The notes: a model not told the origin generated them from the letters alone. Shown: positions 1-35,489, numbered from the stretch's first letter. The stretch is 64,000 nucleotides of DNA from Ignavibacteriae bacterium HGW-Ignavibacteriae-1 (GCA_002839825.1 PGYU01000001.1:462698-526697), one strand, 5' to 3'. A program made the numbers and translations.

Positions 1-52
1 TCAATAGTATGGAAGAAAATGACTAAATAAACAATTTTTGATTTTGAATTTC

Positions 53-88
53 GGCAGCTGTCTAATTTATTGGACAGCTTTTTTTTTC
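53..88 (+). terminator. Rho-independent terminator of the upstream (off-window) gene
   Basis: Hairpin gcagctgtc...gacagct followed by a T9 run. The stem sequence resembles the terminator after the sucA-like gene at 3909-3939. Confidence 0.5.
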
Positions 89-282
89 AATTATAGTCTA
101 AACAAGTGATTATTGACACATCAATCAAACTTAATGCGACCATTTTAATCGAATATGTGAATAATTTATACCATAAACAGATTTTCAAATATTATTTCAA
201 AAGTCGCATATTTACTCAAAATTAAGTATTGAATACATCGTTCCTACTTTTTATATTTGTAACATTTTTGGCATTTTTTGAG

Positions 283-3200
283 ATGATAAATCTTAACTCT
301 GCTTTTGAAGATGAATTGTATTTTAGTTTTTTAAAAGACCCTGATTCTGTCAGCAAAGAATGGAAAGAGTATTTCCAAAGTATTCACGGGAAATCAATTT
401 ATGTGATTGATGAAGGCAATAGACCAATTCCTTCGAGTAGTCGAGAAAATGTTGATAATAAAACTACTGCCTGGAATAATGGTAATTCCGGTTTTAAAAG
501 GAATGGTGGTTTCGATAAATCCGGTGGTGAACTGACTCCCTTGAATGAAATGGAGCAAAGCAATGCTTATCAAATGTTGGAAAGTTTGGAAGTTCCCACA
601 GCTTCATCAACGAGAACTATTCCTGTCAAAGCATTAGACGAAAATAGAAGAATTATAAATCGTTACTTAGTCAAACTAAAGCGTGATAGGGTTTCCTTTA
701 CACATCTACTTGCTTGGGCAACTATCAAAGCCTTGATGAAATTCCCAAATCTAAATGATACTTTCGAGGTAATTGACGGAAAACCTTACCGCGTAAAACG
801 AAATGCCATAAATGTTGGTTTGGCAATAGATGTCATTGCAAAAGATGGTGTGAGATTGCTTGTAATCCCAAATATCAAAAACGTTCAAGATATGAAATTT
901 GATGATTATATCGAAGAATTTAATAATTTGATTGAAAGGGCACGAGCTAACAAATTGGAATACAATGATTTTGTTGATACCACTTTCACTCTTACAAATC
1001 CGGGAATGATTGGGACAACTTCGTCACAGCCGAGATTATTCAAAGGGCAGGGTGTGATTATTTCCACAGGCTCAATTGATTACCCGACAGAATTGCAAGC
1101 TGTTCGCCCGGAAGTGCTGACTACTCTTGCAGTTTCCAAAGTTGTAAATATCACTAATACCTACGACCATAGAATAATTCAAGGTGCAGAATCAGCGGAA
1201 TTTTTGGCTCAAATCAACAAATTATTCCTTGGTGAAGAACAGTTCTATGATCAGATGTTCTATAGTCTGAAAATTCCATTTGAACCTATCAAATGGGCAA
1301 AAGACAGTTCAAACGGCAAATTCAGCTTCTTCAATGTCGAAAATGAAGTTGAAAAGGGTGCCCACGTTATTCAGATGCTGAATGCTTACCGAGTTCGTGG
1401 TCATTTGCTGGCTTCAGTCAATCCATTAGGGCTTGAAACATATTATTATCCCGAGTTAGACCCGGCATATTATGGTTTCACAATTTGGGACCTCGATAGA
1501 GTCTTTCATGCAGATGACAACTGGGACGAAAATAATTTACCGCTTCGAGATATTATCGAGATTTTGCGAGAGACCTATTGCGGCTCGACCGGAATAGAAT
1601 TTATGCACATCCAAAGCCCCGAAAAGAAAGATTGGATTAAGCGTAGATTGGAAACTACCCGCAATACAATCGAATACTCCCAAGACGAGAAAATCGGTAT
1701 TATGCATAAATTGATTGATGCGGAAGTTTTCGAAAATTATTTGCATACAAAATTTGTAGGTAGCAAGAGATTTTCAATCGAAGGTGGCGAAGCTGTCATA
1801 GTTATGCTTGATAAAATTTTCGAAGCCGCTGCAGAAGCCGAATTAAGCACAATTGTATTGGGTATGGCGCATCGGGGCAGACTCAACGTACTTGTAAATA
1901 ACATCGGCAAGAAATACAACAAAATTTTTAATGAATTTGAAGGTATTATTGACCCAAAATCTTACCAAGGTTCGGGCGATGTCAAGTACCATCTGGGTTC
2001 TAAAGGGACTTATACAAACGAAAATAATAAATCAATCAAAGTCATACTTTCTCCGAATCCTTCGCATCTCGAATTAGTTGACCCTGTGATTGAAGGTATG
2101 GCTCGTGCACTCGAAAACGAAATGGGGGACAGGACGTACTCCCAAGTATTGCCTGTGCTTGTTCATGGAGACGCAGCCTTTGCCGGACAAGGAATTGTAG
2201 CCGAGACTTTGAATATGTCTGAATTAGATGGTTACAAAACCGGTGGTACAATTCATGTGATTATCAATAATCAAATCGGATTCACCACTACGATTGATTC
2301 CGCAAGGTCAAGCATATATGCAACTGATATTGCAAAAATGATTCAAACTCCTATTATTCATGTTAATGGTAATGACCCCGAAGCAGTTAGTTCGGCTGCA
2401 AAATTTGCTTTTGAATATAGGACTAAATTCCGTAATGATGTGATTATTGATATACTTTGCTATAGAAAATACGGACATAACGAAGCTGACGAGCCAAGCT
2501 ACACGCAACCTTTGCTCTATAAGAAAATCAAATCTATGCAGAATGTTGCCAAACTGTATGAGCAACAACTTATACACGAAAATGTTGTCTCACGTGAGCA
2601 AATCAACGAGTACTACGACCAATTGAAAGAAAAACTGGATTCAGCTTATGCCAATAGGAAGGATATTGCTCTCAGTAGCTCTCTTCAATTATTGAGTAAG
2701 CAAGAAACGATTTTCGATGATTTTGACAGCAAAGTATCTGAAGAAATTATCAATGAAGTAACTCATGCTTTGACAAATGTGCCCGAAGGATTTAAAATTA
2801 ATCCAAAGTTGGCTACATTATTGCAAAAACGTGCTGATATGGTCAACTCAGATAAGCCGCAGATAGATTGGGCAATGGCTGAGCTTTTGGCATTTGGTAC
2901 GCTACTGCTCGAAGGGAAAGAAGTCAGATTTTCGGGTCAAGATTCAAGACGTGGCACTTTCAGCCAACGTCACGCAGTGCTGACTGATATGATTACAGAA
3001 ATTGATTATATATCGCTTAATCATATTAGAAAGCAACAAAGTGTACTACGAATATTCGATAGTCCTTTATCAGAGGTAGCCGTCTTAGGCTTCGAATACG
3101 GTTATAGTGTTATTGCAGCGAATGGTTTGACTTTATGGGAAGCCCAATTTGGTGATTTTGCAAATAATGCCCAAACCATTGTTGACCAATATATGGCATG

Positions 3201-3888
3201 TGGTGAAGTAAAATGGGGGCAAACTTCGAATTTGGTTATGTTGTTGCCTCACGGCTATGACGGACAGGGCTCGGAACATTCGAGCGCCAGACTGGAACGT
3301 TATCTTCAGTTATGTGCCGAATATAATTTGATAGTGGGTAATTTCACCACACCTTCAAATTATTTCCACGCTATACGTCGCCAAACTTTGATGCCATACA
3401 AAATGCCGATGATTTTGATGACACCAAAAGGTATGTTGAGACACCCACTAAAAGTAGCATCAATGGACGACCTGACAAAAGGCAAATTCAATCACATAAT
3501 TGACGACAACTCAATTGACAAAAATCAAGTGAGGAAAGTTTTGCTTTGCACCGGGAAAGTTTATTTTGACATTGAAACTGAAAGAATAAAACGAAATATC
3601 AGCGATATAGCGATAGTTCGGATTGAGCAACTTTATCCATTCCATCAAGTATTATTCGATGAAATCATTGCATCATTCAAAAATACCAAAGAGATTTGTT
3701 GGGTGCAAGAAGAACCTAAAAACATGGGTGCTTGGAACTATTTGCATCAGATTTTTATCGAAAGCGATTCGCTGTCAACCACCAAAGTTCAATACATAGG
3801 TAGAAAAGCCAGCGCTGCAACTGCTACCGGAATTCACCAAATTCACTTAGCCGAACAACACGAAATTGTTGAAACGGCTCTGAGCTGA
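283..3888 (+). CDS. sucA: 2-oxoglutarate dehydrogenase E1 component with an embedded E2o (succinyltransferase) catalytic domain (OdhA/Kgd-type fusion)
   Basis: The N-terminal SucA motif (FLKDPDSVSKEWKEYF) is followed by a Gly/Asn linker. Then comes a 2-oxoacid dehydrogenase acyltransferase catalytic domain (DHRIIQGAESAEFL). The E1o core follows (AYRVRGHLLASVNPLG, ThDP-binding region, C-terminal transketolase-like domain). The ORF track starts at TTG 229; the ATG at 283 gives a typical SucA N-terminus. No lipoyl domain is present. Confidence 0.9.
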   Translation: MINLNSAFEDELYFSFLKDPDSVSKEWKEYFQSIHGKSIYVIDEGNRPIPSSSRENVDNKTTAWNNGNSGFKRNGGFDKSGGELTPLNEMEQSNAYQMLESLEVPTASSTRTIPVKALDENRRIINRYLVKLKRDRVSFTHLLAWATIKALMKFPNLNDTFEVIDGKPYRVKRNAINVGLAIDVIAKDGVRLLVIPNIKNVQDMKFDDYIEEFNNLIERARANKLEYNDFVDTTFTLTNPGMIGTTSSQPRLFKGQGVIISTGSIDYPTELQAVRPEVLTTLAVSKVVNITNTYDHRIIQGAESAEFLAQINKLFLGEEQFYDQMFYSLKIPFEPIKWAKDSSNGKFSFFNVENEVEKGAHVIQMLNAYRVRGHLLASVNPLGLETYYYPELDPAYYGFTIWDLDRVFHADDNWDENNLPLRDIIEILRETYCGSTGIEFMHIQSPEKKDWIKRRLETTRNTIEYSQDEKIGIMHKLIDAEVFENYLHTKFVGSKRFSIEGGEAVIVMLDKIFEAAAEAELSTIVLGMAHRGRLNVLVNNIGKKYNKIFNEFEGIIDPKSYQGSGDVKYHLGSKGTYTNENNKSIKVILSPNPSHLELVDPVIEGMARALENEMGDRTYSQVLPVLVHGDAAFAGQGIVAETLNMSELDGYKTGGTIHVIINNQIGFTTTIDSARSSIYATDIAKMIQTPIIHVNGNDPEAVSSAAKFAFEYRTKFRNDVIIDILCYRKYGHNEADEPSYTQPLLYKKIKSMQNVAKLYEQQLIHENVVSREQINEYYDQLKEKLDSAYANRKDIALSSSLQLLSKQETIFDDFDSKVSEEIINEVTHALTNVPEGFKINPKLATLLQKRADMVNSDKPQIDWAMAELLAFGTLLLEGKEVRFSGQDSRRGTFSQRHAVLTDMITEIDYISLNHIRKQQSVLRIFDSPLSEVAVLGFEYGYSVIAANGLTLWEAQFGDFANNAQTIVDQYMACGEVKWGQTSNLVMLLPHGYDGQGSEHSSARLERYLQLCAEYNLIVGNFTTPSNYFHAIRRQTLMPYKMPMILMTPKGMLRHPLKVASMDDLTKGKFNHIIDDNSIDKNQVRKVLLCTGKVYFDIETERIKRNISDIAIVRIEQLYPFHQVLFDEIIASFKNTKEICWVQEEPKNMGAWNYLHQIFIESDSLSTTKVQYIGRKASAATATGIHQIHLAEQHEIVETALS

Positions 3889-3908
3889 AACTTACTGTAA
3901 TCATTTAT

Positions 3909-3939
3909 GAAGCTGTCCAAATGGGCAGCTTTTTTTTTG
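3909..3939 (+). terminator. Rho-independent terminator after the sucA-like gene
   Basis: Hairpin aagctgtcc-aaat-gggcagctt followed by T9, 20 nt after the stop codon. Confidence 0.7.
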
Positions 3940-3958
3940 TTGTTTGGTTATGTATGTA

Positions 3959-4158
3959 GGGACAGAACAGCGTTCTGTACGTAACATGGACCCATGAATT
4001 TATTCGAGGGAGAAAGAGAATTGACGTAGATGTGATTAATTCATCCGATGACTCCCGCTTTCTGTCCCACAGCTTTAATAAATTCAATTCATCTGAATAG
4101 TTCAAGTCATCGGATGAATAAAAAGCGTGAAAATATTGAACAGAACGCTGTCCTGTCC
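3959..4158. repeat. ~200 bp palindromic intergenic element; the outer arms gggacagaacagcgttctgt (3959-3978) and acagaacgctgtcctgtcc (4140-4158) are inverted copies
   Basis: The reverse complement of the 3' arm matches the 5' arm apart from 2 mismatches. The element encloses the 4038-4123 hairpin element. Confidence 0.6.
4038..4123. repeat. ~85 bp hairpin element, copy 1 (15 bp inverted repeat AATTCATCCGATGACTCC / AGTCATCGGATGAATAAA around a ~50 nt loop)
   Basis: The perfect inverted repeat TTCATCCGATGACT/AGTCATCGGATGAA is read directly from the sequence. A second copy sits at 5783-5866. Confidence 0.7.
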
Positions 4159-4307
4159 TTACGTCTCGGGTTTTTCTCCCTCTCCTTCGGAGAGGGTCGG
4201 GGTGAGGTGTATTTGTTTTTTTTCCAATCTGTAACTTTTTCACTTCACGATGTGTATTTAAAATATTGGAAAATGGGAAAAATTTCCTATTTTTAAAGAA
4301 ATTGATA

Positions 4308-5654
4308 ATGAGAGTACTTATGAAAATGAAATCATTCCTTGTAGCCGCTATAGCGATATTGTTGTTATGCCAATTCACACCTTTATGGACGCAGGAAGAA
4401 ATGGAGTTGGAATTAGTCTTGGAAGTTAAGTACTCAGGTCTTTTTTCGCAAGCATTTGAACAAGTTTGCAAAAAAGGGAAATTTCTTGTTAATTCATCCG
4501 ATGGAGAACGTTATCTATATGACCTTAATACAGGTGAACTAATTTATAAAACAACAAAAGGAACTGAATCTTCCCTTGTAGTTAATGATGTTGGAGATAA
4601 GTTTTATATCCGGAACATTTCAGAAAACACATTTGAAGAATATGATATTAAAACAAAAGTTTTGATACAAAAAATTCCGCATGTAATAAACGGGTATAAA
4701 TATCCGTTAAGAATATCACCTGATAATGTCTATTTTGAATTTTACGAGCATCCTCATTCAATCGTGTTTAAAGACCTATATACGGGAACAGTGTTAGATA
4801 GCTTTAAAGTGCCAAATTCTCCAGACAACGCTACATTTCGTATGGTTGATGAAGGAGAGTTCTCTTATGATGGTAGATATTTTAAGTTCGGATTAGTAAA
4901 TCAATTCAATACTGAAGCAGGAGCGAATTGGTTTGTATATGACAGACAAGCGAAGGAAATTGTATTTTTAAGATATATTGAGCCTGCACTTGGCGGTGAA
5001 TTGTATTTGGAGTTTTACAATACAAAAAATTGGATGTTCGTTTCACATAGAATGAAATTGAATGATGATGACATAGCATATAATTATTTAAGCGAATTCG
5101 ATTTAGATGTAAGAGAATTTAAAAATCACATAAAAATAAACAAATTAGCAAATTTTACAAGTGCTAGGTTGAGATTGGATGATAAAATGTATACTTACAG
5201 ATTAATATATCCTAATGGTGATTCAACTAATGTTCAAAGGTTTTACGATTATGAAAACAAGAGAGTTATTGATTACACCCTTAAACACTGGATAAACATG
5301 TTTGATTCAAACAATATTTGGTATTGGCATGTTGATGTATTACGAAAGTATCGTTTTGATTGGACTGTAGGAGTAGAAGACGAAACAAATTTGGGTGAGC
5401 AAATACTATATCCAAATCCGGCAACGGAATATATTGAAATAGCTGTAGATATCAACCCTACGGTTAACCGTAGGGTTGATGAAATTTCAGAGATTCATAT
5501 TTTCAACACGCTCGGTGAATGTGTGATTGAATTAGCAGATGTCCAACATCTTGGAGATGTTGGACATCTACAACGCATTAATGTGTCGCATCTACCCCGT
5601 GGCGTGTACTATATCCGTATCGGCAGCCGGACGCAAATGTTTGTTAAAGTCTGA
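4308..5654 (+). CDS. Secreted protein with a C-terminal T9SS (Por_Secre_tail) sorting domain
   Basis: Signal peptide MKMKSFLVAAIAILLLCQF. The C-terminus ILYPNPATEYIEIAV...GVYYIRIGSRTQMFVKV is typical of T9SS type A CTDs. The ORF track start at 4266 is probably too early; ATGs at 4308 and 4320 are better candidates. Confidence 0.75.
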   Translation: MRVLMKMKSFLVAAIAILLLCQFTPLWTQEEMELELVLEVKYSGLFSQAFEQVCKKGKFLVNSSDGERYLYDLNTGELIYKTTKGTESSLVVNDVGDKFYIRNISENTFEEYDIKTKVLIQKIPHVINGYKYPLRISPDNVYFEFYEHPHSIVFKDLYTGTVLDSFKVPNSPDNATFRMVDEGEFSYDGRYFKFGLVNQFNTEAGANWFVYDRQAKEIVFLRYIEPALGGELYLEFYNTKNWMFVSHRMKLNDDDIAYNYLSEFDLDVREFKNHIKINKLANFTSARLRLDDKMYTYRLIYPNGDSTNVQRFYDYENKRVIDYTLKHWINMFDSNNIWYWHVDVLRKYRFDWTVGVEDETNLGEQILYPNPATEYIEIAVDINPTVNRRVDEISEIHIFNTLGECVIELADVQHLGDVGHLQRINVSHLPRGVYYIRIGSRTQMFVKV

Positions 5655-5657
5655 AAT

Positions 5658-5708
5658 ATGATTTGTTTGATTTGAATGATTTGTTTGATTTGAATGATTT
5701 GTGTGATT
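5658..5708. repeat. Tandem direct repeat, 18 bp unit atgatttgtttgatttga, about 2.8 copies
   Basis: Read directly: units at 5658-5675 and 5676-5693, with a degenerate partial copy at 5694-5708. Confidence 0.7.
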
Positions 5709-5718
5709 ACGCTTTTCT

Positions 5719-5752
5719 AACCTTCCGAAGGTTCCAAACCTTCGGAAGGTTT
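5719..5752. repeat. Twin mirror-image hairpins aaccttccgaaggtt / aaaccttcggaaggttt
   Basis: Two adjacent short stem-loops with GC-rich stems. Together they form a larger palindrome. Confidence 0.6.
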
Positions 5753-5782
5753 CGTCTATATTAACAAACTGACGGGCATTTT

Positions 5783-5866
5783 AATTCATCCGATGACTCC
5801 CTAATATTTGTCACAACTTTGATCAATTCATTTATCTTAATTCTCCAAGTCATCGGATGAATAAAT
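5783..5866. repeat. ~85 bp hairpin element, copy 2 (same 15 bp inverted repeat as 4038-4123)
   Basis: aattcatccgatgactcc ... agtcatcggatgaataaa, with a ~45 nt loop that is roughly 70-75% similar to copy 1. It lies in direct orientation relative to copy 1, on the other side of the 4308-5654 gene. Confidence 0.7.
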
Positions 5867-5925
5867 GAATTTTAGAGCTTCTTAATCACCAGAATCATAC
5901 AAATCATAGTTCAGACAAGTTTGTT

Positions 5926-5948
5926 CCGTCAGTTGTAACAACTGACGG
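5926..5948. repeat. Perfect 23 bp palindrome ccgtcagttgt-a-acaactgacgg
   Basis: An 11 bp perfect inverted repeat read directly from the sequence. The related motif aactgacggg also occurs at 5766-5776. Confidence 0.7.
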
Positions 5949-5961
5949 GACAATATGCCCC

Positions 5962-5999
5962 AAAAAAAAAGACTGACTCTTTGAAAGTCAGTCTTTTTT
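5962..5999. terminator. Bidirectional rho-independent terminator
   Basis: An A9 run, then hairpin agactgactc-tttgaa-agtcagtct, then a T6 run. It is placed to terminate the minus-strand lipoprotein gene (6019-6756) and plus-strand read-through. Confidence 0.65.
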
Positions 6000-6018
6000 G
6001 TAAAATTTATAAGTAAGA

Positions 6019-6756
6019 TTATTGATTTGATTGAGCATTAACATTTTCGGATAATGTGTTTGCCACACTGATTTTTGTACCATCCGCAAAGATGATTTCC
6101 GACGGTACCCAAATTCTTCTCATTTGGTCCCATTGCGTGCGCAATGTCATGTCGTTATTATTATTAGGGTCATGAACAAATGGATAAACGATGCGTCTTG
6201 TTTCGCCGGCTTTGATAGGTTGGTTACCCAATACCACAGGAATTTTACCCATAATAAAGTTCTTTACGAGTTGGCGATTTTGAGTATAAATTTGCAAAGC
6301 ACCTTTGAAATCAACAATGTCTTTGTCAGAACGGTTCGTAAATTCAAATACAATCGAATTCAATTCTCTGTTGTTCACTGAATCTGCTTGTGGAGCTAAT
6401 CCAACCAAAAGAAATTTGTGGTTGAGTACCAATTCGGAACGTGTAGCAACATTCGCCAGATTTGCAGCCATCTGATTTCTTTCGTTTTCAATCTCTAATT
6501 CAATAACTTGGGCGAGAGTTTTACCTACGAGCGAATCAACGCTTCTTGATAATAAGGTGGTCATCCCGGTTGATAGATATCTCATTTCATCGGCGGTGAG
6601 AAGTGGGTCTTTTCCCGCTTCGGTGATAATTTGGACCAAATTATCTTTAGTAATTGACTCGTTCAAAAGCGGTGATTTCTTTGCTTTTTGTTCGCATCCG
6701 GTAAAAATTACAAAAGCAATTGCAATGATAGTAAGCAATTTAATTGTAATACGCAT
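6019..6756 (-). CDS. Hypothetical lipoprotein
   Basis: Lipobox MRITIKLLTIIAIAFVIFTGC. No domain I recognise. Confidence 0.6.
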   Translation of the reverse strand: MRITIKLLTIIAIAFVIFTGCEQKAKKSPLLNESITKDNLVQIITEAGKDPLLTADEMRYLSTGMTTLLSRSVDSLVGKTLAQVIELEIENERNQMAANLANVATRSELVLNHKFLLVGLAPQADSVNNRELNSIVFEFTNRSDKDIVDFKGALQIYTQNRQLVKNFIMGKIPVVLGNQPIKAGETRRIVYPFVHDPNNNNDMTLRTQWDQMRRIWVPSEIIFADGTKISVANTLSENVNAQSNQ

Positions 6757-6842
6757 GTTTAGACTCCAAATAGAATTTCAAAAATGTTTTATTAAGGTTA
6801 CAAAAATAACTTATATTTTAGTTAATACAAAAATTCAATTTA

Positions 6843-7754
6843 TTATAGCATTCCAAGCAAGTGACCTTGGATAACTCCGTATCTCAATCCTTTGGCACTT
6901 ACAACGCATTCCGCGATTTTGAATTCTTCAAAAATTGTTCTCAATATCAATGTGCCTGCGAGTATCAGGTTAGCTCTGCCAGGACTTACGAGATGTTTGG
7001 TAGCGATTTCTTCGACAGTTGAGCCATAGTACAAATCAAAAAGCTCATTGAGTTTTTCAATTGTCAAATTGTAGTTGTCAATTTCTCTCACTTTATAATC
7101 ATGTATCCCACAAGCTGTAGCTGCGAGAGTCGTTGCAGTTCCGGCAACTGCAAAGATTTGATCATATTTTGGCATTTCGGCTTTCACATCATCCAGCAAC
7201 TCGCGAATGTACCGGACAGTTTCATCAATTTGCGATTGAGTAGGAGGGTGGCTCATATTGAAAAATCTCTCGAAAATCCTGACTGCACCTATATCAAGGC
7301 TTTGTTTAAACAAGATTTGTTTGTCTTTGCCGATGATAATTTCTGTACTGCCGCCGCCAATGTCAATTACCAGAGATGTTTTAGGGGAATTGACAGTGCC
7401 GATAAAGCTCAAAGTTGCTTCTTTTTTGCCATCAATGATGAACACCGGGTGCTGGAGAATAGATTCGAAGGACATTTTTACTTGAGCACTATTCTTAGCG
7501 TCACGCATAGCGCTCGTTGCTACTGTTATGATGCTCTGTACATCAAACTTTTTGCAAATGTTGACACATTTTTGAAGAATTTTCTCGGCTCTTAGGATTG
7601 CCTGTTCGTTTATCAATCCGGTTTTGTCGGTATCTTCACCAAGTCTGGCGATAGCATACTCCTCGTGAAGAATTTTTATCTCATTATTTAGAGATATTTG
7701 AGCAACAAGCATCAAAATAGTGTTTGTCCCAATATCAATCGAAGCTAATCTCAT
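6843..7754 (-). CDS. ppx: Ppx/GppA family phosphatase (exopolyphosphatase / pppGpp phosphohydrolase)
   Basis: N-terminal MRLASIDIGTNT, a DIGGGSTE motif and the actin-like ASKH fold signature. The probable start is the MRLAS methionine (ORF track start 7787). Confidence 0.8.
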   Translation of the reverse strand: MRLASIDIGTNTILMLVAQISLNNEIKILHEEYAIARLGEDTDKTGLINEQAILRAEKILQKCVNICKKFDVQSIITVATSAMRDAKNSAQVKMSFESILQHPVFIIDGKKEATLSFIGTVNSPKTSLVIDIGGGSTEIIIGKDKQILFKQSLDIGAVRIFERFFNMSHPPTQSQIDETVRYIRELLDDVKAEMPKYDQIFAVAGTATTLAATACGIHDYKVREIDNYNLTIEKLNELFDLYYGSTVEEIATKHLVSPGRANLILAGTLILRTIFEEFKIAECVVSAKGLRYGVIQGHLLGML

Positions 7755-7756
7755 AC

Positions 7757-8605
7757 TTATTCCACTATAAATTGAAAAGCTACCCACTCATCGTCATACA
7801 TTGTTTCATTCAGCTTGAAACCTGCTTTGGTAGCACTTTTGACAACGGTTTCTTCGTCATATTTCAAAATCCCGGAAACTAGTAAAATTCCTTTCCTTGC
7901 CTTGAGCGAATCATACATTTTGCTGAATGAATCTATGACTAAATGAAGGAACAAATTTGCAAAAATCCCGTCAGATTCGGGCAATTCAACTTTGTAAATA
8001 TCTGCATTTTCTACTTTGATGTTAGACACGCCATTCAAGGCGATGTTTTCATTTATATTCAATGTTGACCATTCGTCATTATCGAATGCGAAAACTTCCT
8101 TGGCGCCAAGTTTGGAGGCTAAAATAGCCAATAATCCCGTGCCGGAACCAGCATCAATCCAAAAACTATCAGCTTTGACATATTTCAATGCTAATTGGGA
8201 CATCATCTTAGTAGTAGAATGGTGACCTGTGCCGAATGACATTTGTGGATTTATGATGATTTTCATGTCGGCAGCAACTTCATTTGCTTTCCATTCGGGA
8301 GTGATAACGCAATTCTCATCAATCCAAACAGGCTCAATCGAATTCTCCCAATCTTCGTTCCAGTTCTTTTCCTCGATTTCGATTGTTTCAACTAATTTTG
8401 CTTTCGGATACACACCTTTTATAATTTCAAACAGACTGTTGAATACTTCCTCATCGAATTTGTGTGAATGAAAAGTAATTTTGTAAACATCATGGACTTG
8501 TTCAACACCCACAAAGTCCATATCGCAAATCAATCCTAAAGCTAAATCGTGAAGCTCTTCGGGAAACTCAAATACTACTATTTTATAAGTGTTATTCAAT
8601 TTCAA
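7757..8605 (-). CDS. prmA: Ribosomal protein L11 methyltransferase
   Basis: FGTGHHSTTKMM and the SAM-binding motif IDAGSGTGLLAI. Length is 282 aa. Confidence 0.85.
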   Translation of the reverse strand: MKLNNTYKIVVFEFPEELHDLALGLICDMDFVGVEQVHDVYKITFHSHKFDEEVFNSLFEIIKGVYPKAKLVETIEIEEKNWNEDWENSIEPVWIDENCVITPEWKANEVAADMKIIINPQMSFGTGHHSTTKMMSQLALKYVKADSFWIDAGSGTGLLAILASKLGAKEVFAFDNDEWSTLNINENIALNGVSNIKVENADIYKVELPESDGIFANLFLHLVIDSFSKMYDSLKARKGILLVSGILKYDEETVVKSATKAGFKLNETMYDDEWVAFQFIVE

Positions 8606-8677
8606 TCCAATAATTATGTGACATATACTTTTATATTATAGTATCTTGTACAATTCAAAAATATGAATTAAAATAAC

Positions 8678-9214
8678 ATGAGTGACATAAAAGTTACTGA
8701 CGAGTTGAATCACAAGCTAAATAAAATAAAGCTTTTAGTGATGGATGTTGATGGCACACTTACAGATGGTACAATGTATTATTCCAAAACCGGGGAAGAA
8801 CTCAAAAAATTTTCAACACGCGATGGAATGGGAATTACACTACTACGAAAAAATGATATTGAGAGTGCAATCATAACTAGCGAATATTCTCAAATATCGG
8901 AACAAAGAGCTATCAAATTACGTATAGAACATGTGGTACTTGGTAGTCGGAACAAAACCGAATCACTTATTGAATTGTCAAAAAAATTGAATTTAGAATT
9001 GAATGAAATAGCCTTCATAGGCGATGATATAAATGACGAACACGTAATGAACATCGCGGGAGTTTCGGCTTGTCCGGCAGATGCAACTAAATCAATTCAA
9101 CAAATTGCCGATTACATTTGCTCATCAAATGGCGGCAATGGGGCAGTCAGAGAATTCATAGAAGCTATTTTAAAATCTCAAAATAAAAGTATTTGTTTAA
9201 CAGAAAATTGGTAG
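8678..9214 (+). CDS. kdsC: 3-deoxy-D-manno-octulosonate 8-phosphate phosphatase (HAD IIIA)
   Basis: LLVMDVDGTLTDG, GDDINDEHVM, and a 178 aa size typical of KdsC. Confidence 0.8.
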   Translation: MSDIKVTDELNHKLNKIKLLVMDVDGTLTDGTMYYSKTGEELKKFSTRDGMGITLLRKNDIESAIITSEYSQISEQRAIKLRIEHVVLGSRNKTESLIELSKKLNLELNEIAFIGDDINDEHVMNIAGVSACPADATKSIQQIADYICSSNGGNGAVREFIEAILKSQNKSICLTENW

Positions 9215-9222
9215 GAGGATTT

Positions 9223-9648
9223 ATGTCAGGTAGTAATGATTCAGGAAATTACACACGCGGGTTTATAATCGGCGCAATTGTCGGTGGAGTATCAGGAGCA
9301 ATAACGGCTCTTTTGTTAGCACCAAAATCAGGAGTAGAACTTAGAAAAGATATTTCTGACCAATCGGTAGAATATTACACGAAAGCTGCAGATTATTTCA
9401 AGACTATGGAAGGTAAGGTAGGAGATGGTATCAACGAAGGCAAATTAAAAGCCCAAGGTATCATGGATAATGCTCGACACAAAGCAGGAGATATTCTGCA
9501 CGACGCTGAAAGTGTAATTAAAGATGCACGTTTGAAAGCATCTAATGCAAAAGATCAAATTCAGGACAGAATTGAAAATATTCGCGATGCTGCTAAAGCC
9601 GGTACAGATGCATTCAAATCTGAAATGAAATCAATCGATAACAAATAA
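9223..9648 (+). CDS. YtxH-domain protein (general stress family)
   Basis: GFIIGAIVGGVSGAITALLLAPKSGVELRKD matches the YtxH pattern. The ATG at 9223 is preceded by AGGAGG; the ORF track starts at 9193. Confidence 0.7.
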   Translation: MSGSNDSGNYTRGFIIGAIVGGVSGAITALLLAPKSGVELRKDISDQSVEYYTKAADYFKTMEGKVGDGINEGKLKAQGIMDNARHKAGDILHDAESVIKDARLKASNAKDQIQDRIENIRDAAKAGTDAFKSEMKSIDNK

Positions 9649-9662
9649 AAAATGGGATTAAC

Positions 9663-10142
9663 ATGGATGACGCGCTTAAAATCACAGGTTTGGTAGCTAT
9701 TGTTTCATTCATAATTTTGTCTTGGGTCGGAATCGTTGCCGCAATCAAAGTCGGTAAACTCTTTGAAAATATATCACTTACGTTTGATACCTTAAAGGGT
9801 GATGTTGCTGATGTAAAAGCGAAGGCACTCATATTATTCGAAGATTTACATAGCTTAAAAATAAGATTAGAACGTACTTTAGACGAATTTTCCGAACTTA
9901 AAGGGAATATCGCTGTTTCGCTTGAAAGTGTGACTGATTTGAGCGAACAGATTACAAAATCTGTCGAAAACATTGAGAGACGCACTGATAAATTTATCAG
10001 TATTATCGAACCAATTGAAAAAGTTGTTGGTAAATTTGTTGATTCTATTGCGCCGACATTAAATTACACAGGTGGCGTTGTAAGCGCTTTTTCCAAAGCT
10101 ATTTCTGCATTCTCAGGCAAGTTATTAAAGGGCAAAGGTTAA
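9663..10142 (+). CDS. DUF948-family membrane/coiled-coil protein
   Basis: An N-terminal transmembrane helix followed by coiled-coil. The family typically pairs with YtxH. Confidence 0.6.
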   Translation: MDDALKITGLVAIVSFIILSWVGIVAAIKVGKLFENISLTFDTLKGDVADVKAKALILFEDLHSLKIRLERTLDEFSELKGNIAVSLESVTDLSEQITKSVENIERRTDKFISIIEPIEKVVGKFVDSIAPTLNYTGGVVSAFSKAISAFSGKLLKGKG

Positions 10143-10153
10143 ACTTCTTGCAC

Positions 10154-10198
10154 AAAAAAAATGGGCTGATTCGTAAAAAACGATTCAGCCCTTTTTTT
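10154..10198. terminator. Bidirectional rho-independent terminator
   Basis: An A-run, then gggctgattcg...cgattcagccc, then a T7 run, between convergent genes. Confidence 0.65.
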
Positions 10199-10211
10199 AT
10201 AGTTTGCTTGT

Positions 10212-10835
10212 TTACTTTTTTCCTAATTCTGCTTTTGTTGAGAAGACATACTTTTCAGCAGCTACCCAAACACCAAACATAATGCCCGAATAGAGTAGGG
10301 TCGAAGCCAAAGTATATCTAAAAAATGGAAGTGCTTCACCAAAACAATACAAAAATCCGGCTAAAGACTTTTCATAAGGAGTATTTGTAATATCCAAACC
10401 GAAAAGCCAAGAACCAATATTTGTTAGAAAGAAGAAAACCAAAGCACTTGCCAAAGATGTCAGCGTTACATTTTTGAAGTTAATAGTCTTAATTCCAAAC
10501 ATACCTATCAAAGCAATCACAACGATTGAAAAGTAAACTATCAATGTGCTGTAATGAAATCCTGCATAATATCCCAACAAACTTTCACTGAAGAAATGTA
10601 AAAGTACATCACTCAAAAACAATACCGAAACCGGGATTAAAAAAGCAAATTTTCTGTTAGAAGCAAAGATTGCTCCGGCAAATAATGCAAGTGCTGTTAC
10701 CGGCTGAAAATTTGGGAAAACCGGAAAAAGTCTCGATAAAGCCATTATTAGAATTAGCCCGATTGCAAAAAGCATTTTATTTTGCGTTGTCATAATTTTA
10801 CACTCAATTTTAGTTAACAATACTATCAGATACAA
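10212..10835 (-). CDS. Polytopic membrane protein of unknown function (possibly an ECF S-component-like or DUF membrane family)
   Basis: Five or six hydrophobic helices and no recognisable catalytic motif. The real start is probably MTTQNK at 10793. Confidence 0.55.
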   Translation of the reverse strand: MYLIVLLTKIECKIMTTQNKMLFAIGLILIMALSRLFPVFPNFQPVTALALFAGAIFASNRKFAFLIPVSVLFLSDVLLHFFSESLLGYYAGFHYSTLIVYFSIVVIALIGMFGIKTINFKNVTLTSLASALVFFFLTNIGSWLFGLDITNTPYEKSLAGFLYCFGEALPFFRYTLASTLLYSGIMFGVWVAAEKYVFSTKAELGKK

Positions 10836-26311: not shown

Positions 26312-29300
26312 TTAATTTTTAATTTCCATTTTTTTCATAATTGTCTGAGTTGGAGTTTCTAAAATATAAAAATAAACTCCCGAACTCAAATCACCTGTAA
26401 ATACTGAGAATTGATGTTCGCCCGGACTTAAAGAGCTTTCAATAACATTCCTAACAACTCTACCGAATATATCCGAAATATAAAGTTTCGTAACTCCGGT
26501 TTCTACTACTTCGATTGTGATATTCGTTTTTTCAACAGCAGGATTTGGTTCATTTTGCGAAAGTGAAATTCTGCCATTGGGGTCGAATAATCTTGGTCCG
26601 CCCTCGATGCAATAACCTGTCAAAGTAAATGAACCGGCTTTATCGAAAATATTTACACGCCCAAAACCAATCGGATATGTAAATTCGGTTGTCAAAGTAG
26701 TAATCGAGTCATTGCCCAATCCTACTTTGAAAGTCAAAGTTTTCAAGACTGAATCTGCACCAAATGTAGTTGGCAAATCAACATCAATGAAATTTTCACC
26801 GTTAATTATTGTAGATTTAGTAAAACCATCAAGCGGTTCAAGCATTGTAGCATTGAATTTAACTTGGGTTCTGAATCCTTCAATCGAAGGTGCAATGCCA
26901 AATTCGCCGATTCCGGTAATTTTGATAGGAACTTGTATTACATCACCGTCTTCGGCAGTATGGTCGCCAATGTAAATTGTAATAGAATCATTTCGGGCAA
27001 AAACACCTTCGCCAAATAAATTCACAATTGTAGGCGAACCAAGCCCATCGTGCTCGAAATATACTTGAGCATTTTTTCGCCCGATCAACTTTGGCGAGAA
27101 ACGAAGCGTCATCATCAAATCCGAGCCTGCAGGAATTGTTACAACTTTATCGCCTATTGCCCCAAAATCAAAACGATACGAGCCTACTAAGCCAACATTT
27201 GTAATATTCAACGGTGAACTACTTGTATTTGTTACCAGAGCAATAAATGTGGAATCCTTAATGCTTCCTACATCTATGAGCTTGAAATCAACTAAGCGAT
27301 TATTTGCCTTCAAAGTTCTTTCAATTCCGAAACCTGTTAACGTGGTTTCGATAATACGTCCGGGAATCTGGAATTCAAGATTACCGCTTCTCATGCCAAG
27401 TCCCTTGGGCATAAATCTCAATTCCAAACTTAATGTATCTCCGCTTTGAAGCAGTATAGGAAATTCTAAGTCGGAATTGATTTCAAAATCAGCAGCGTGA
27501 TTGCCACCAATGCTGATATTGCGAATATTATAAGCAAATTTAGATTCATTTACAAAAACATATTGGAATACCGAATCAATTAATTCATCAACAACGACTT
27601 CACCAAACTCGTGCTCAAATCCTTTGCCCTCGGCAAAAGCTATTGTGAAGACAGAATCAGAAACATCTTGTTGAAGTTCCTTTTGGTCAAGATTCCATAT
27701 TTTAGCAGTCGAATCCCAACTTGAAGTCATTACTCGGGAACCAAATCTGTCAAAAACTGCAGTAGTAACCGAATTTTTATGTTCTTTAAAAACGTTATCG
27801 GTGATAAAATCATTGATACGTTCGGGGCTACCGTCGCTTGCATCCCACAAACGAGCCGTTTGGTCTGTACTTGTAGTCAACAAAACTTCCCTACCCAAGT
27901 CAGGGTGCATAAAGAAGCTTGAGAAATTGATTGAATTATTATCTCCGGGCTCAATGTTGTGCGTGATTGAATATAATGGTGGGTCTGTAGTATTAACATC
28001 CCATACATATAAGACTTTTGGTTCGCCCGAACTTGTTGCAGCAGCTACTTTAGTGGCATCGGTGTTATAGGTCACATGTGTACACTCTATGCTCTTTGTA
28101 TCATATACAACCAAAGGCATATCTCCCAATGTGTAATTAACCCAATTAAATACCTTGACTTTACCCCCCTGGTTGGCAGTAATAATTAGGTTTTCGTCAA
28201 TAGGATTGAAGTCTGCAAACCATGTAACCCCTTTATTTGACTGAACTTTTTTTTCAATTTCCCAGTTTGTGTTCCATACTATAACATTTCCCAGATAATC
28301 TGAGGATACTAAGTAATCACCGGTACTTGACCAGTTAACCGATTCGACTCTTGTTGCATGGTCTTCTAAGACTTTTACAAGTGAACCGTCTTCTAAGCTC
28401 CAAATCATAACCATAGAGTCTGTACTTGAAGTTGCAACGTATTTGTCATTTGGGTCAAATGTTGCCCATGTCAAGGGTCTTGTATGACCCCTCAGAATAA
28501 ATTTCTTAGCTCCTGTATTTGCTACCCAAACGACGGCAGTCGTATCGCTACTTGCTGTTACTACTAAATCACCTTCACGATTGAAAAATCCTGAATTGAC
28601 CCGCCCATTATGTTTCAAATCAAGTGTAAATCCAACATTATTGGGCCATAATTGTAAAATTTTGACTAGACATGAATCACTCGGCTTATTTGGAATTACC
28701 CAATCTTTTCTAAGTCCTGTAACGTTAGTAGCTAAGGTATCCCATTTTCGTCCGTTATCAATAGAGTATTGCAATTGAATTACATCTTTAGGCAATAAGC
28801 CAATCCATTCAACAAATGAGGTATCTCCGATAATCAAGTATTCACCACCGTTGGGATGCACAATTTTTACAGTTTTTTCGATAGGTTTTGTATTTGGGAA
28901 TCCACCGGTGATATAAATTGGAACTATATCGCAAGCATCTGAAATTACTTTTATTTCCGTAAAAACGATTGCTTCATGTTGTGGTTCATATTCGATTGTC
29001 AGGTTTAGAAAATCATTTTGAGCTAAAAGATAATTTGTGACATTACCTTCAACGATGGAAAATGGTTCGTCAATTTGAAGTTCTTGAATCAAAATATCTC
29101 GATTGCGAGCTGTTATAGTCAAACTCAATCGCTTTTTGTTCCCTACTTCTACCGAACTGAATCCAATAAATTGAGGTTCAGACACGATTGATGCTTTTTG
29201 AGCATTTTGAAAACTGAAATTGAAACTATCGCGTAAGTTGAGTGATGGTAATACAATTTCTGCTGTATGTTCATCATCGCAAGATACAAAATTATCCCAT

Positions 29301-34526: not shown

Positions 34527-35489
34527 TTAAGTGCGGATTTCTACTTTGACATGTTCATGAGCATGGTATGAACTACGGACAAGAGGACCTGATTCGACAT
34601 GACCAATGCCATTTTCTTCACCAACTCTTTTGAACTCTCTGAATTGGTCAGGAGTTACGAAACGGTCAACAGGCGTATGGTTGACTGATGGTTGAAGATA
34701 TTGCCCGATAGTCATAATGTCAAGTTTGATATTTATTAAATCTTTCATCAGTTCATAGACTTCATCATCAATTTCGCCGATTCCCACCATTATACCTGAT
34801 TTGGTTCTAAGTCCTGCAGCTTTGCAATAGCTTAAAACATCGAGTGATTGTTGATATTTGGCTTGTGGTCTGATTTTTTTGTAAAGTCTTGGGACTGTTT
34901 CCATATTATGATTCAAAATATCGGGAGCAGCTTGGATTACTCTATCCAAGCATTTGGTATCGCCTTTGAAATCGGGAATCAAAACCTCGATGGTAGTTTC
35001 GGGATTTAATTCGCGAATTCTGTAAATTGTTTCAGCCCAAATTGTGGAACCTTGGTCTTTAAGTTCGTCTCGATTGACAGAAGTAACTACGGCATGTTTG
35101 ACGCCCATCTTTCTGACAGACATTGCAACATCATAAGGTTCGTTTTTATTGATTGTGTGAGGAATGCCGGTTTTAATGGCGCAAAAACTACATGCACGGG
35201 TGCAAGTGTCACCAAGAATCATGAAAGTAGCTGTTCCATGCGCCCAACATTCGCCGATATTTGGGCAATGTGCTTCTTCGCAAACAGTATGCAAAGACTT
35301 GCTTCGCATCAAATTTTGGATAAACGCATACGAGTCGCCGCCGGGTGCTTTAACCTTGAGCCATTCAGGGCGTTGTCCGACAGTAGTTTTTAATTCCGGG
35401 TTGTTGCGCTTTGCTTTTACGGGGATATTGAACTTTGGCTTTTCAATTATTTCATCTCTGTGTGGCAACAAATCTATTTTATCATTCAT
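34527..35489 (-). CDS. lipA: Lipoyl synthase
   Basis: CEEAHCPNIGECW and radical-SAM CTRACSFCAI motifs. Confidence 0.9.
   Translation of the reverse strand: MNDKIDLLPHRDEIIEKPKFNIPVKAKRNNPELKTTVGQRPEWLKVKAPGGDSYAFIQNLMRSKSLHTVCEEAHCPNIGECWAHGTATFMILGDTCTRACSFCAIKTGIPHTINKNEPYDVAMSVRKMGVKHAVVTSVNRDELKDQGSTIWAETIYRIRELNPETTIEVLIPDFKGDTKCLDRVIQAAPDILNHNMETVPRLYKKIRPQAKYQQSLDVLSYCKAAGLRTKSGIMVGIGEIDDEVYELMKDLINIKLDIMTIGQYLQPSVNHTPVDRFVTPDQFREFKRVGEENGIGHVESGPLVRSSYHAHEHVKVEIRT

What the first reader, a model, noticed from the sequence alone, without database searches (positions are those of the whole stretch)
283..3888. OdhA/Kgd-type fused E2o-E1o 2-oxoglutarate dehydrogenase in a T9SS-bearing (FCB-group-like) genome
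One polypeptide carries the SucA N-terminal motif, a complete E2 acyltransferase catalytic domain (DHRIIQG active-site motif) and the E1o core. It has no lipoyl domain, and no separate sucB lies nearby. This architecture is the hallmark of actinobacterial OdhA/KGD. Those enzymes borrow lipoyl domains from the PDH E2 and are regulated by FHA-domain proteins. Finding it here implies either an unusual hybrid 2-oxoglutarate dehydrogenase/PDH supercomplex or lateral acquisition.
Basis: partly seen in the sequence, partly recalled or inferred. Interest (0 to 1): 0.5.

Follow-up and report, generated by a model that had tools for sequence, protein, structure and literature searches.

The report
OdhA-type fused oxoglutarate dehydrogenase in Kapabacteria

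Summary
Window 283-3888 (+) is one uninterrupted 1201-aa ORF. It carries the E1o N-terminal motif, a linker, an E2 acyltransferase catalytic domain and a complete E1o. It has no lipoyl or E3-binding domain. It scores 1586 bits on NCBIfam NF008907 (cut-off 878) and aligns end to end with the M. smegmatis KGD and C. glutamicum OdhA structures. All OdhA E2o active-site residues, the OdhA-specific helix insertion, the ThDP motif and 93/93 invariant E1o columns are kept.

The source is the MAG 'Ignavibacteriae bacterium HGW-Ignavibacteriae-1', whose relatives are labelled Candidatus Kapabacteria. GenBank already names this protein (PKL86879.1) a multifunctional oxoglutarate decarboxylase/dehydrogenase.

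It is neither an assembly artefact nor a recent transfer:
- More than 200 homologue clusters share the architecture.
- They form a 100%-bootstrap clade separate from the actinobacterial clade.
- GC content is native and local gene order is conserved.

The hybrid PDH/ODH complex remains an inference. No E2, E3, lipoyl or FHA gene lies in the 64 kb window, the 10 kb upstream, or about 1.3 Mb around 90 related loci. The OdhI/GarA docking aspartate is not conserved. A stand-alone PtsN-like EIIA gene directly upstream is an untested regulatory lead.

Verdict: a new member of a known kind, of moderate interest.

The parts
1..26 (+). 3' end (last 8 codons plus the TAA stop at 24-26) of a stand-alone PTS_EIIA_2 (PtsN-like) gene. 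The rest of the gene lies upstream of the window (full gene: L008 9283-9744, 153 aa).
   Evidence: PF00359 on the gene directly upstream of odhA. (Fru/Ntr-type EIIA, below the equivalog cut-offs). (conserved GxxIAxPH histidine). (this adjacency in 19 of 44 clade loci).
56..88 (+). Terminator-like hairpin (AGCTGTC...GACAGCT) followed by a T-run, after the EIIA gene.
229..257 (+). Promoter-like element (TTGAAT-17-TATATT). It overlaps a TAtaTTTG motif at 252-259, 24 nt before the ATG.
   Evidence: 9/12 consensus match only; a weak indication. Sequence read.
283..3888 (+). odhA/kgd-type gene: 1201-aa fused E2o-E1o 2-oxoglutarate dehydrogenase (GenBank PKL86879.1).
295..387 (+). Residues 5-35: E1o N-terminal helical motif (PF16078). 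In OdhA and E1o this is the presumed docking segment for an E2 core.
   Evidence: Aligned to CgOdhA residues 12-46. Role taken from 10.1101/2020.07.24.212647 and PMC10415282.
388..534 (+). Residues 36-84: low-complexity flexible linker (Gly/Asn/Ser-rich).
   Evidence: sequence. No Pfam hit.
535..1317 (+). Residues 85-345: E2o succinyltransferase catalytic domain with no lipoyl or PSBD domain. It includes S109, T238, S248, Y294, H296 and Q300, and the OdhA-specific helix at 276-282.
1165..1185 (+). DHRIIQG active-site motif (His296/Gln300 dyad), identical to MsKGD.
1318..1350 (+). Residues 346-356: E2-E1 linker. The conserved FYDQ.F..L.IPFEP..W segment just before it aligns with the actinobacterial enzymes.
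1351..3885 (+). Residues 357-1201: E1o (ThDP-dependent 2-oxoglutarate dehydrogenase) part, comprising a small helical domain, E1_dh, Transket_pyr and OxoGdeHyase_C.
   Evidence: All 93 invariant family columns are retained.
2167..2271 (+). ThDP-binding motif GDAAFAGQG...NN (residues 629-663).
3909..3942 (+). Terminator-like hairpin plus T-run, 21 nt after the odhA stop codon.
34527..35489 (-). Lipoyl synthase (lipA). It shows that the organism makes lipoylated proteins, which is context for a lipoyl donor acting in trans.
   Evidence: Radical_SAM plus LIAS_N.

Best explanation
The gene encodes a functional OdhA/Kgd-type bifunctional enzyme.

Proposed mechanism:
1. The C-terminal E1o part (ThDP/Mg2+) decarboxylates 2-oxoglutarate.
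2. It reductively succinylates a lipoyl-lysine.
3. The N-terminal E2o domain (His296/Gln300 dyad, with Ser109/Tyr294 holding the succinyl carboxylate) passes the succinyl group to CoA, giving succinyl-CoA.

The polypeptide has no lipoyl domain. The lipoyl arm, and the E3 that reoxidises it, must therefore come in trans from another 2-oxoacid dehydrogenase E2 encoded elsewhere in the genome (E2p or E2b). The retained N-terminal helical motif probably serves as the docking element. By homology it should assemble as a trimer-of-dimers hexamer.

Shown here: architecture, family membership, intact catalytic residues, clade-wide conservation, stand-alone gene organisation and vertical inheritance in Kapabacteria/Ignavibacteria.

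Inferred only: the identity of the lipoyl donor, the oligomeric state and the mode of regulation.
For: - Domain order and absence of lipoyl/PSBD domains.
- NF008907 at 1586 bits against a cut-off of 878.
- Full-length alignment to MsKGD 8P5R (1050 bits) and CgOdhA 8P5T (1030 bits).
- The E2 domain is 44-46% identical to the OdhA/KGD E2o domains. It is only 26-31% identical to E. coli SucB/AceF and C. glutamicum AceF.
- It shares indels with OdhA/KGD (KDGxR insert, helix insert) and the D-to-Q change in DHRxxDG.
- All CgOdhA active-site residues listed in PMC10415282 (S129, T258, S268, Y314, H316, Q320) are conserved. Y-D-H-R-x-I-Q-G is invariant in 12 diverse clade members.
- The AF2 model of the E2 domain (pLDDT 80) has a helix at 276-281. 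It matches CgOdhA best (Foldseek E 8e-34, TMq 0.86, against about 1e-18 for canonical E2 cores).
- The ThDP motif and 93/93 invariant E1o columns are retained.
- The PF16078 N-terminal motif is kept in nearly all homologues.
- lipA is in the window.
- No E2 or E3 lies next to odhA in any of 90 loci, as for actinobacterial odhA.
Against: - No lipoyl-bearing E2 or E3 from this or any related genome could be examined, so supply of the lipoyl arm in trans is not demonstrated.
- A separate sucB elsewhere in the genome is not excluded.
- The salt-bridge residues of the OdhA three-fold helix (Cg R298/E301) are Val278/Thr281 here. Hexamer packing may therefore differ.
- In the E1 domain the protein is no closer to MsKGD (46%) than to E. 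coli SucA (44%). The NJ tree does not resolve a common node for the FCB and actinobacterial fused enzymes (33% bootstrap).
Confidence: 0.8

Rival explanations
1. Recent horizontal acquisition of an actinobacterial odhA by this particular genome.
For: [quoted passage not shown] The E2 domain is clearly of the OdhA type.
Against: - GC content of the gene (0.36-0.39) equals that of the window.
- There is 83% nucleotide identity and shared flanks with a congeneric MAG.
- The upstream block penicillin amidase - epimerase - NTP-transferase/PGM - EIIA - odhA is conserved in genomes whose OdhA is only 64-69% identical and partly at about 50%.
- More than 240 fused homologue clusters exist in low-GC FCB-type contigs.
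- The FCB clade has 100% bootstrap support and the actinobacterial-like clade 99%, and neither is nested in the other.
- Identity to MsKGD is only about 46%.
Confidence: 0.03
2. Assembly or frameshift artefact that merges a sucB-like gene with sucA.
For: None, beyond the a priori rarity of the architecture outside Actinobacteria.
Against: - It is a single frame.
- The identical protein occurs on 5 independently assembled contigs.
- Hundreds of full-length homologues exist.
- There is no lipoyl or PSBD region, which a merged sucB would carry.
- The linker aligns with the crystal structures.
Confidence: 0.01
3. The enzyme works mainly without lipoate. It would act as a 2-oxoglutarate decarboxylase yielding succinic semialdehyde, or as a 2-hydroxy-3-oxoadipate synthase. 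These activities have been reported for mycobacterial Kgd (my own knowledge: Tian 2005; de Carvalho 2010; Wagner 2011). On this view the E2 domain would be mostly structural.
For: - The ThDP chemistry is the same, and CgOdhA shows decarboxylase activity alone (PMC10415282).
- No lipoyl donor was found near the gene.
- The organism comes from anoxic groundwater, and relatives also carry 2-oxoglutarate:ferredoxin oxidoreductase (I. album, PMC3362086).
Against: The E2o catalytic dyad and the succinyl-specific Ser/Tyr are strictly conserved across the clade. That argues for selection on succinyl transfer. The N-terminal E2-docking motif is retained. lipA is present.
Confidence: 0.1
4. A canonical ODH complex with a separate, lipoylated SucB encoded elsewhere. 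The fused E2 domain would be redundant, and there would be no sharing with PDH.
For: The rest of the genome could not be searched. The E1 part scores above the cut-off for canonical SucA models (TIGR00239 at 1063 bits against 770).
Against: - In Actinobacteria, OdhA presence goes with loss of E2o (PMC8740704).
- sucB normally follows sucA, as in E. coli. It is absent from all 90 loci.
- The catalytic residues of the fused E2 are conserved.
Confidence: 0.1

Closest known systems
Corynebacterium glutamicum OdhA (PDB 8P5S-8P5X) and Mycobacterium smegmatis/tuberculosis KGD (8P5R, 2XT6; Rv1248c)
   Same: - Same domain order and no lipoyl or PSBD domain.
- 44-46% identity in both domains.
- DHR(I/V)IQG His/Gln dyad.
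- Ser/Tyr succinyl-binding pair.
- KDGxR and helix insertions.
- Conserved linker and N-terminal PF16078 motif.
- Stand-alone gene.

   Different: - The host is a Kapabacteria/Ignavibacteriae bacterium, not an actinobacterium.
- It forms a separate, well-supported clade.
- The N-terminal region is shorter: about 84 residues before the E2 domain, against about 100-120.
- The three-fold-helix salt bridge R298/E301 is replaced by V/T.
- The OdhI/GarA docking Asp (Cg D795) is Gln and is variable in the clade.
- The partner E2p with its three-residue insertion, and PknG/OdhI control, are unknown here.
Canonical E1o/E2o pair (E. coli SucA plus SucB)
   Same: The E1o part is 44% identical to SucA, with all invariant residues and the ThDP motif. 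The E2 domain has the CAT-like fold and the catalytic His.
   Different: - Here the E2 catalytic domain is fused in front of E1o and lacks its lipoyl and PSBD domains.
- The Asp of DHRxxDG is Gln.
- There are extra insertions.
- No sucB follows the gene.
Full fusions lipoyl-(PSBD)-E2-E1o (Thermoleophilia type, noted by Bruch et al.)
   Same: E2-E1o fusions of the same family. Examples in metagenomes are P0143, P0144, P0147 and P0181.
   Different: Those carry one or two N-terminal lipoyl domains and need no donor in trans. The window protein and its whole clade carry none.

Membership tests
OdhA/Kgd-type multifunctional E2o-E1o (NCBIfam NF008907 / PRK12270) | Whole-protein score above the curated cut-off of the equivalog model. 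| tested here: met
   1586 bits against a cut-off of 878, covering model positions 121-1239 of 1241.
OdhA/Kgd-type multifunctional E2o-E1o | One polypeptide with PF16078, then PF00198, then PF00676, PF02779 and PF16870 (the architecture rule used by Bruch et al.). | tested here: met
   The rule is quoted from 10.1101/2020.07.24.212647.
OdhA/Kgd-type multifunctional E2o-E1o | No lipoyl (PF00364) and no E3-binding (PF02817) domain. | tested here: met
   No Pfam hit. The lipoyl HMM was negative on this protein and positive on control full fusions.
OdhA/Kgd-type multifunctional E2o-E1o | E2o active site: His316/Gln320 dyad, Thr258, Ser268, and the succinyl-binding Ser129/Tyr314 (CgOdhA numbering). 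| tested here: met
   H296, Q300, T238, S248, S109 and Y294. These are invariant in 12 clade members.
OdhA/Kgd-type multifunctional E2o-E1o | OdhA-specific short alpha-helix (Cg 296-302) replacing the beta-hairpin at the three-fold axis. | tested here: met
   The insert has the same length as in Cg and Ms and is absent from SucB/AceF. AF2 predicts a helix at window residues 276-281. The R298/E301 salt-bridge residues are not conserved.
OdhA/Kgd-type multifunctional E2o-E1o | Intact ThDP-dependent E1o core. | tested here: met
   GDAAF...NN motif at 629-663, and 93/93 invariant columns retained.
OdhA/Kgd-type multifunctional E2o-E1o | Homohexamer (E2o trimers plus E1o dimers). | not testable with these tools
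   Inferred only from about 45% identity to 8P5R/8P5T.
OdhA/Kgd-type multifunctional E2o-E1o | Uses lipoyl domains of the PDH E2p in trans; no separate E1o/E2o genes in the genome. | not testable with these tools
   Only the 64 kb window, 10 kb upstream and about 1.3 Mb around related loci could be read. None holds an E2, E3 or lipoyl gene.
OdhA/Kgd-type multifunctional E2o-E1o | [quoted passage not shown] | not tested
   No E2p of this lineage could be retrieved.
OdhA/Kgd-type multifunctional E2o-E1o | Inhibition by an FHA protein (OdhI/GarA) docking on helix alphaE through a phosphomimetic Asp. | tested here: inconclusive
   The Asp (Cg D795; D/E in the four actinobacterial-like sequences aligned: MsKGD, P0137, P0138, P0139) is Gln780 here. 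In the clade it varies (Q/D/E/H/L/R/K/G/N). No FHA gene is in the window. The rest of the genome was not searched.
Canonical SucA (E1o, TIGR00239/NF006914) | E1o alone, about 900-950 aa, with the N-terminus directly followed by the E1o helical domain. | tested here: not met
   The E1o part scores above the cut-offs (1063 and 1180 bits). However, those matches start at residue 339, and a 260-residue E2 domain precedes them.
Full lipoyl-E2-E1o fusion (Thermoleophilia type) | N-terminal lipoyl domain(s). | tested here: not met

The most novel reading that the evidence does not exclude
Kapabacteria/Ignavibacteria would be an independent, non-actinobacterial lineage in which an OdhA-type enzyme shares the lipoyl arms of another complex. 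This would happen without the actinobacterial accessories (FHA protein OdhI/GarA, and possibly the trimer-only E2p). Control of the 2-oxoglutarate node might instead involve the stand-alone PtsN-like EIIA encoded directly upstream of odhA. That adjacency is seen in 19 of 44 clade loci. It would parallel unphosphorylated PtsN binding and inhibiting pyruvate dehydrogenase in Pseudomonas putida, and PtsP sensing of glutamine/2-oxoglutarate (PMC13104625).
Probability: 0.15. Interest if true: 0.65.

Novelty: new member of a known kind. Interest (0 to 1): 0.38.

Why it matters
The current literature treats OdhA as an essentially actinobacterial hallmark. It explains the dismantled, trimeric actinobacterial PDH core as a co-adaptation to OdhA. 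A large, deep clade of OdhA-type enzymes in a Bacteroidota-related lineage offers an independent natural test of that idea. Do these organisms also lack sucB? Do they also have a reduced E2p core? How is the 2-oxoglutarate node regulated without OdhI? For metabolic reconstruction of Kapabacteria/Ignavibacteria MAGs there is a practical consequence. A 'missing sucB' should not be read as an incomplete TCA cycle.

Tried and rejected
- **GTDB genome scan with the protein.** It gave only two loci. Their record titles ('Desulfobulbaceae', 'Hyphomicrobiales') are contradicted by the gene content. Identical proteins are labelled Kapabacteria.
- **Cluster names.** Most are truncated before the organism name. 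The taxonomy of the other fused clusters (P0135, P0140, P0141, P0145, P0146, P0168, P0262) stays unknown.
- **Search for the partner E2/E3.** I looked in the window, in 10 kb upstream, and in 90 odhA loci from genomes and JGI metagenomes (about 1.3 Mb). There was no lipoyl, E2 or Lpd hit. No seed E2 from this lineage was available, so the protein database could not be searched usefully.
- **The genomic neighbourhood** says nothing about the partner.
- **HPr/NPr near the EIIA gene.** None found.
- **OdhI/GarA docking residues.** Not conserved, but not decisive.
- **EIIA-odhA adjacency as evidence of function.** This was weakened because it mostly travels with the neighbouring NTP-transferase/PGM gene (11 of 13), so it may be plain synteny.
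- **E1-domain NJ tree.** Deep nodes joining the FCB and actinobacterial fusions are unresolved (33% bootstrap). The case for a single origin of the fusion rests on the E2 domain and shared indels instead.
- **Literature search.** No open-access paper mentions OdhA together with Bacteroidota, Ignavibacteria or Chlorobi. The I. album genome paper mentions only that '2-oxoglutarate dehydrogenase' genes are present. The PNAS version of Bruch et al. is not held.
Full report
**1. What is there**

The window holds one uninterrupted ORF at 229..3888 on the + strand. The first ATG is at 283 and gives a 1201-aa protein beginning MINLNSAFEDELYFSF.

Pfam places five domains:
- the E1o N-terminal motif PF16078 at residues 5-35;
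- the E2 acyltransferase catalytic domain PF00198 at 85-314 (E 4e-42);
- E1_dh at 484-792;
- Transket_pyr at 860-1053;
- OxoGdeHyase_C at 1059-1200.

There is no lipoyl or E3-binding domain. A lipoyl HMM built from the four E. coli lipoyl domains is also negative on this protein. The same HMM detects lipoyl domains in control 'full fusions'.

NCBIfam's equivalog model for the actinobacterial multifunctional enzyme (NF008907) scores 1586 bits against a cut-off of 878.

**2. Not an artefact**

- The identical protein is encoded on five independently assembled contigs from ENA, Logan, JGI and NCBI.
- More than 240 homologue clusters cover the full length with the same five Pfam domains.
- The alignment with the crystal and cryo-EM structures of M. 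smegmatis KGD (8P5R, 1050 bits) and C. glutamicum OdhA (8P5T, 1030 bits) runs continuously through the E2-E1 linker.

**3. Whose genome**

Exact look-ups of window proteins identify the source as the MAG 'Ignavibacteriae bacterium HGW-Ignavibacteriae-1' (GenBank PKL868xx). Its closest relatives are labelled Candidatus Kapabacteria.

The gene content fits. There are four T9SS C-terminal sorting-domain proteins, LptD_2, DUF4292 and DUF6580.

GenBank already names this very protein (PKL86879.1) 'multifunctional oxoglutarate decarboxylase/oxoglutarate dehydrogenase thiamine pyrophosphate-binding subunit/...'.

**4. Is it an OdhA by its details, or only by its outline?**

*E2 domain.*
- It is 44-46% identical to the E2o domains of CgOdhA and MsKGD. 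It is only 26-31% identical to E. coli SucB, E. coli AceF or C. glutamicum AceF.
- It shares derived characters with the actinobacterial enzymes that canonical E2s lack: a KDGxR insertion, the insertion that forms the OdhA-specific helix at the three-fold axis, Gln in place of Asp in DHRxxDG, and the conserved FYDQ.F..L.IPFEP..W tail.
- Every residue that Yang et al. (PMC10415282) assign to the OdhA succinyltransferase site is present: S109, T238, S248, Y294, H296 and Q300. The motif is invariant in twelve diverse clade members.
- An AlphaFold model of residues 85-360 (pLDDT 80) predicts a helix at 276-281. Its best structural matches are CgOdhA (Foldseek E 8e-34, TMq 0.86) and MsKGD. Canonical E2 cores follow at about 1e-18.

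*E1o part.* It keeps the ThDP motif. It keeps all 93 columns that are at least 97% invariant in 57 canonical and fused relatives.

*Differences from the actinobacterial enzymes.* The salt-bridge pair of the three-fold helix (Cg R298/E301) is V278/T281. The segment before the E2 domain is shorter.

**5. Distribution and history**

[quoted passage not shown] The data here show a large non-actinobacterial population.

- The 120 best hits to the window protein are all fused proteins at 56-92% identity. Where a label is visible, it reads Kapabacteria, Ignavibacteria, Ignavibacteriota or Bacteroidota.
- A sister group around P0134 adds at least another 120 clusters. Its loci carry the same neighbours or T9SS cargo genes.
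- In an NJ tree of the E1 domain, the FCB clade has 100% bootstrap support. FCB plus P0134 has 93%. The actinobacterial-like clade (MsKGD, P0137-P0139) has 99%. Neither is nested in the other, and deeper nodes are unresolved.
- The gene's GC content is that of the window.
- The congeneric MAG shares the flanks at 83% nucleotide identity.
- The upstream block penicillin amidase - epimerase - NTP-transferase/PGM - EIIA - odhA is kept in genomes whose OdhA is only 64-69% identical.
- FCB-clade loci are low-GC (median 0.35). The more distant fused loci recovered from metagenomes are high-GC (median 0.65).

So the fusion most likely arose once, given the shared E2-domain characters. It has been inherited vertically in Kapabacteria/Ignavibacteria for a long time. 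Any transfer to or from Actinobacteria is ancient, and its direction is unknown.

**6. How it most likely works**

By homology the enzyme would work as follows.
1. It decarboxylates 2-oxoglutarate on ThDP.
2. It succinylates a lipoyl-lysine.
3. It transfers the succinyl group to CoA in its own E2o site.

It has no lipoyl domain, so the swinging arm and E3 must be supplied in trans. The retained N-terminal helical motif is the likely docking element, a role proposed for OdhA and KGD. lipA in the window (34527-35489) shows that lipoylation exists in this organism.

The donor could not be identified. No E2, E3, lipoyl or GcvH-like gene lies in any of the following:
- the fully annotated window;
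- the 10 kb upstream;
- the roughly 1.3 Mb around 90 odhA loci.

The gene looks monocistronic here. A promoter-like element lies at 229-257, and terminator-like hairpins lie at 56-88 and 3909-3942. The hybrid PDH/ODH supercomplex is thus a reasonable inference, not a finding.

**7. Regulation**

FHA control is not supported. No FHA gene is in the window. The phosphomimetic Asp that docks OdhI/GarA (Cg D795) is D or E in the four actinobacterial-like sequences compared. It is Gln780 here and is highly variable in the clade. This is not decisive, because only one contact was examined.

One thing stood out in passing. A stand-alone, PtsN-like EIIA gene (PF00359, with a conserved phosphorylatable His) ends at window position 26. 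It lies directly upstream of odhA, on the same strand. This arrangement is seen in 19 of 44 unique clade loci and in none of 30 loci from more distant fused clades.

PtsP senses glutamine and 2-oxoglutarate, and unphosphorylated PtsN inhibits pyruvate dehydrogenase in P. putida (PMC13104625). A regulatory link is therefore conceivable. The adjacency mostly travels with the next gene upstream (11 of 13), so plain synteny explains it equally well. No HPr-like gene is nearby.

**8. Verdict**

This is a genuine, intact OdhA/Kgd-type E2o-E1o enzyme. It is ordinary for its lineage rather than an oddity of this genome.

Its value is comparative. A second, large, independent lineage now exists in which the proposed coupling between OdhA, loss of E2o and a dismantled E2p core can be tested.

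I rate it a new member of a known kind. Interest is about 0.4.

Noticed in passing
window 1-26 (gene continues upstream; full gene L008 9283-9744): A stand-alone PtsN-like PTS EIIA gene (PF00359, conserved GxxIAxPH histidine) lies directly upstream of odhA on the same strand. The arrangement is found in 19 of 44 unique Kapabacteria/Ignavibacteria odhA loci and in 0 of 30 more distant fused loci. It mostly co-occurs with an NTP-transferase/PGM gene, so it may be synteny rather than function.
   Followed up: partly
window 56-88 and 3909-3942: Terminator-like GC hairpins with T-runs bracket odhA. A promoter-like TTGAAT-17-TATATT lies at 229-257. Together they suggest a monocistronic unit in this genome, whereas in many relatives the EIIA-odhA gap is only 14-80 nt.
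   Followed up: partly
window 3885-10212 versus L001 13602-13696: About 6.3 kb is present here but absent at this position in the congeneric CROMO MAG. It carries a T9SS cargo protein, an unknown 245-aa ORF, Ppx/GppA, PrmA, a HAD hydrolase, YtxH and a DUF948-like gene. In that MAG odhA is followed directly by the DUF6580 gene.
   Followed up: no
L001 (JAGXRP010000033.1) and L002 (CAZWXI010000011.1): The public record titles 'Desulfobulbaceae bacterium CROMO_A_116' and 'uncultured Hyphomicrobiales bacterium' look like taxonomic mislabels. The loci are syntenic with this Kapabacteria-type window, and identical proteins carry Kapabacteria labels.
   Followed up: partly
proteins P0143, P0144, P0147, P0181 (metagenomic representatives): These are E2-E1o fusions of 1288-1443 aa that do carry one or two N-terminal lipoyl domains. 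This is the 'full fusion' seen by Bruch et al. only in Thermoleophilia. Their taxonomy here is unknown.
   Followed up: partly
window 61097-63931 (+): A 944-aa ORF fuses a branched-chain-type ABC permease domain (BPD_transp_2) with two ABC_sub_bind/periplasmic-binding domains. This is an unusual permease plus binding-protein fusion. A STAS-domain protein (59848-61095) lies just upstream.
   Followed up: no
window 52176-55481 and 55607-59746 (+); 26312-30100 (-): These are very large secreted proteins. A 1101-aa ORF has no Pfam match at all. A 1379-aa ORF has only a weak T9SS sorting tail. A 1262-aa WD40/beta-propeller protein has a T9SS tail.
   Followed up: no
window 34527-35489 (-): A lipoyl synthase (lipA) sits next to a sigma-70 gene. 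It is the only lipoate-related gene in the window.
   Followed up: no
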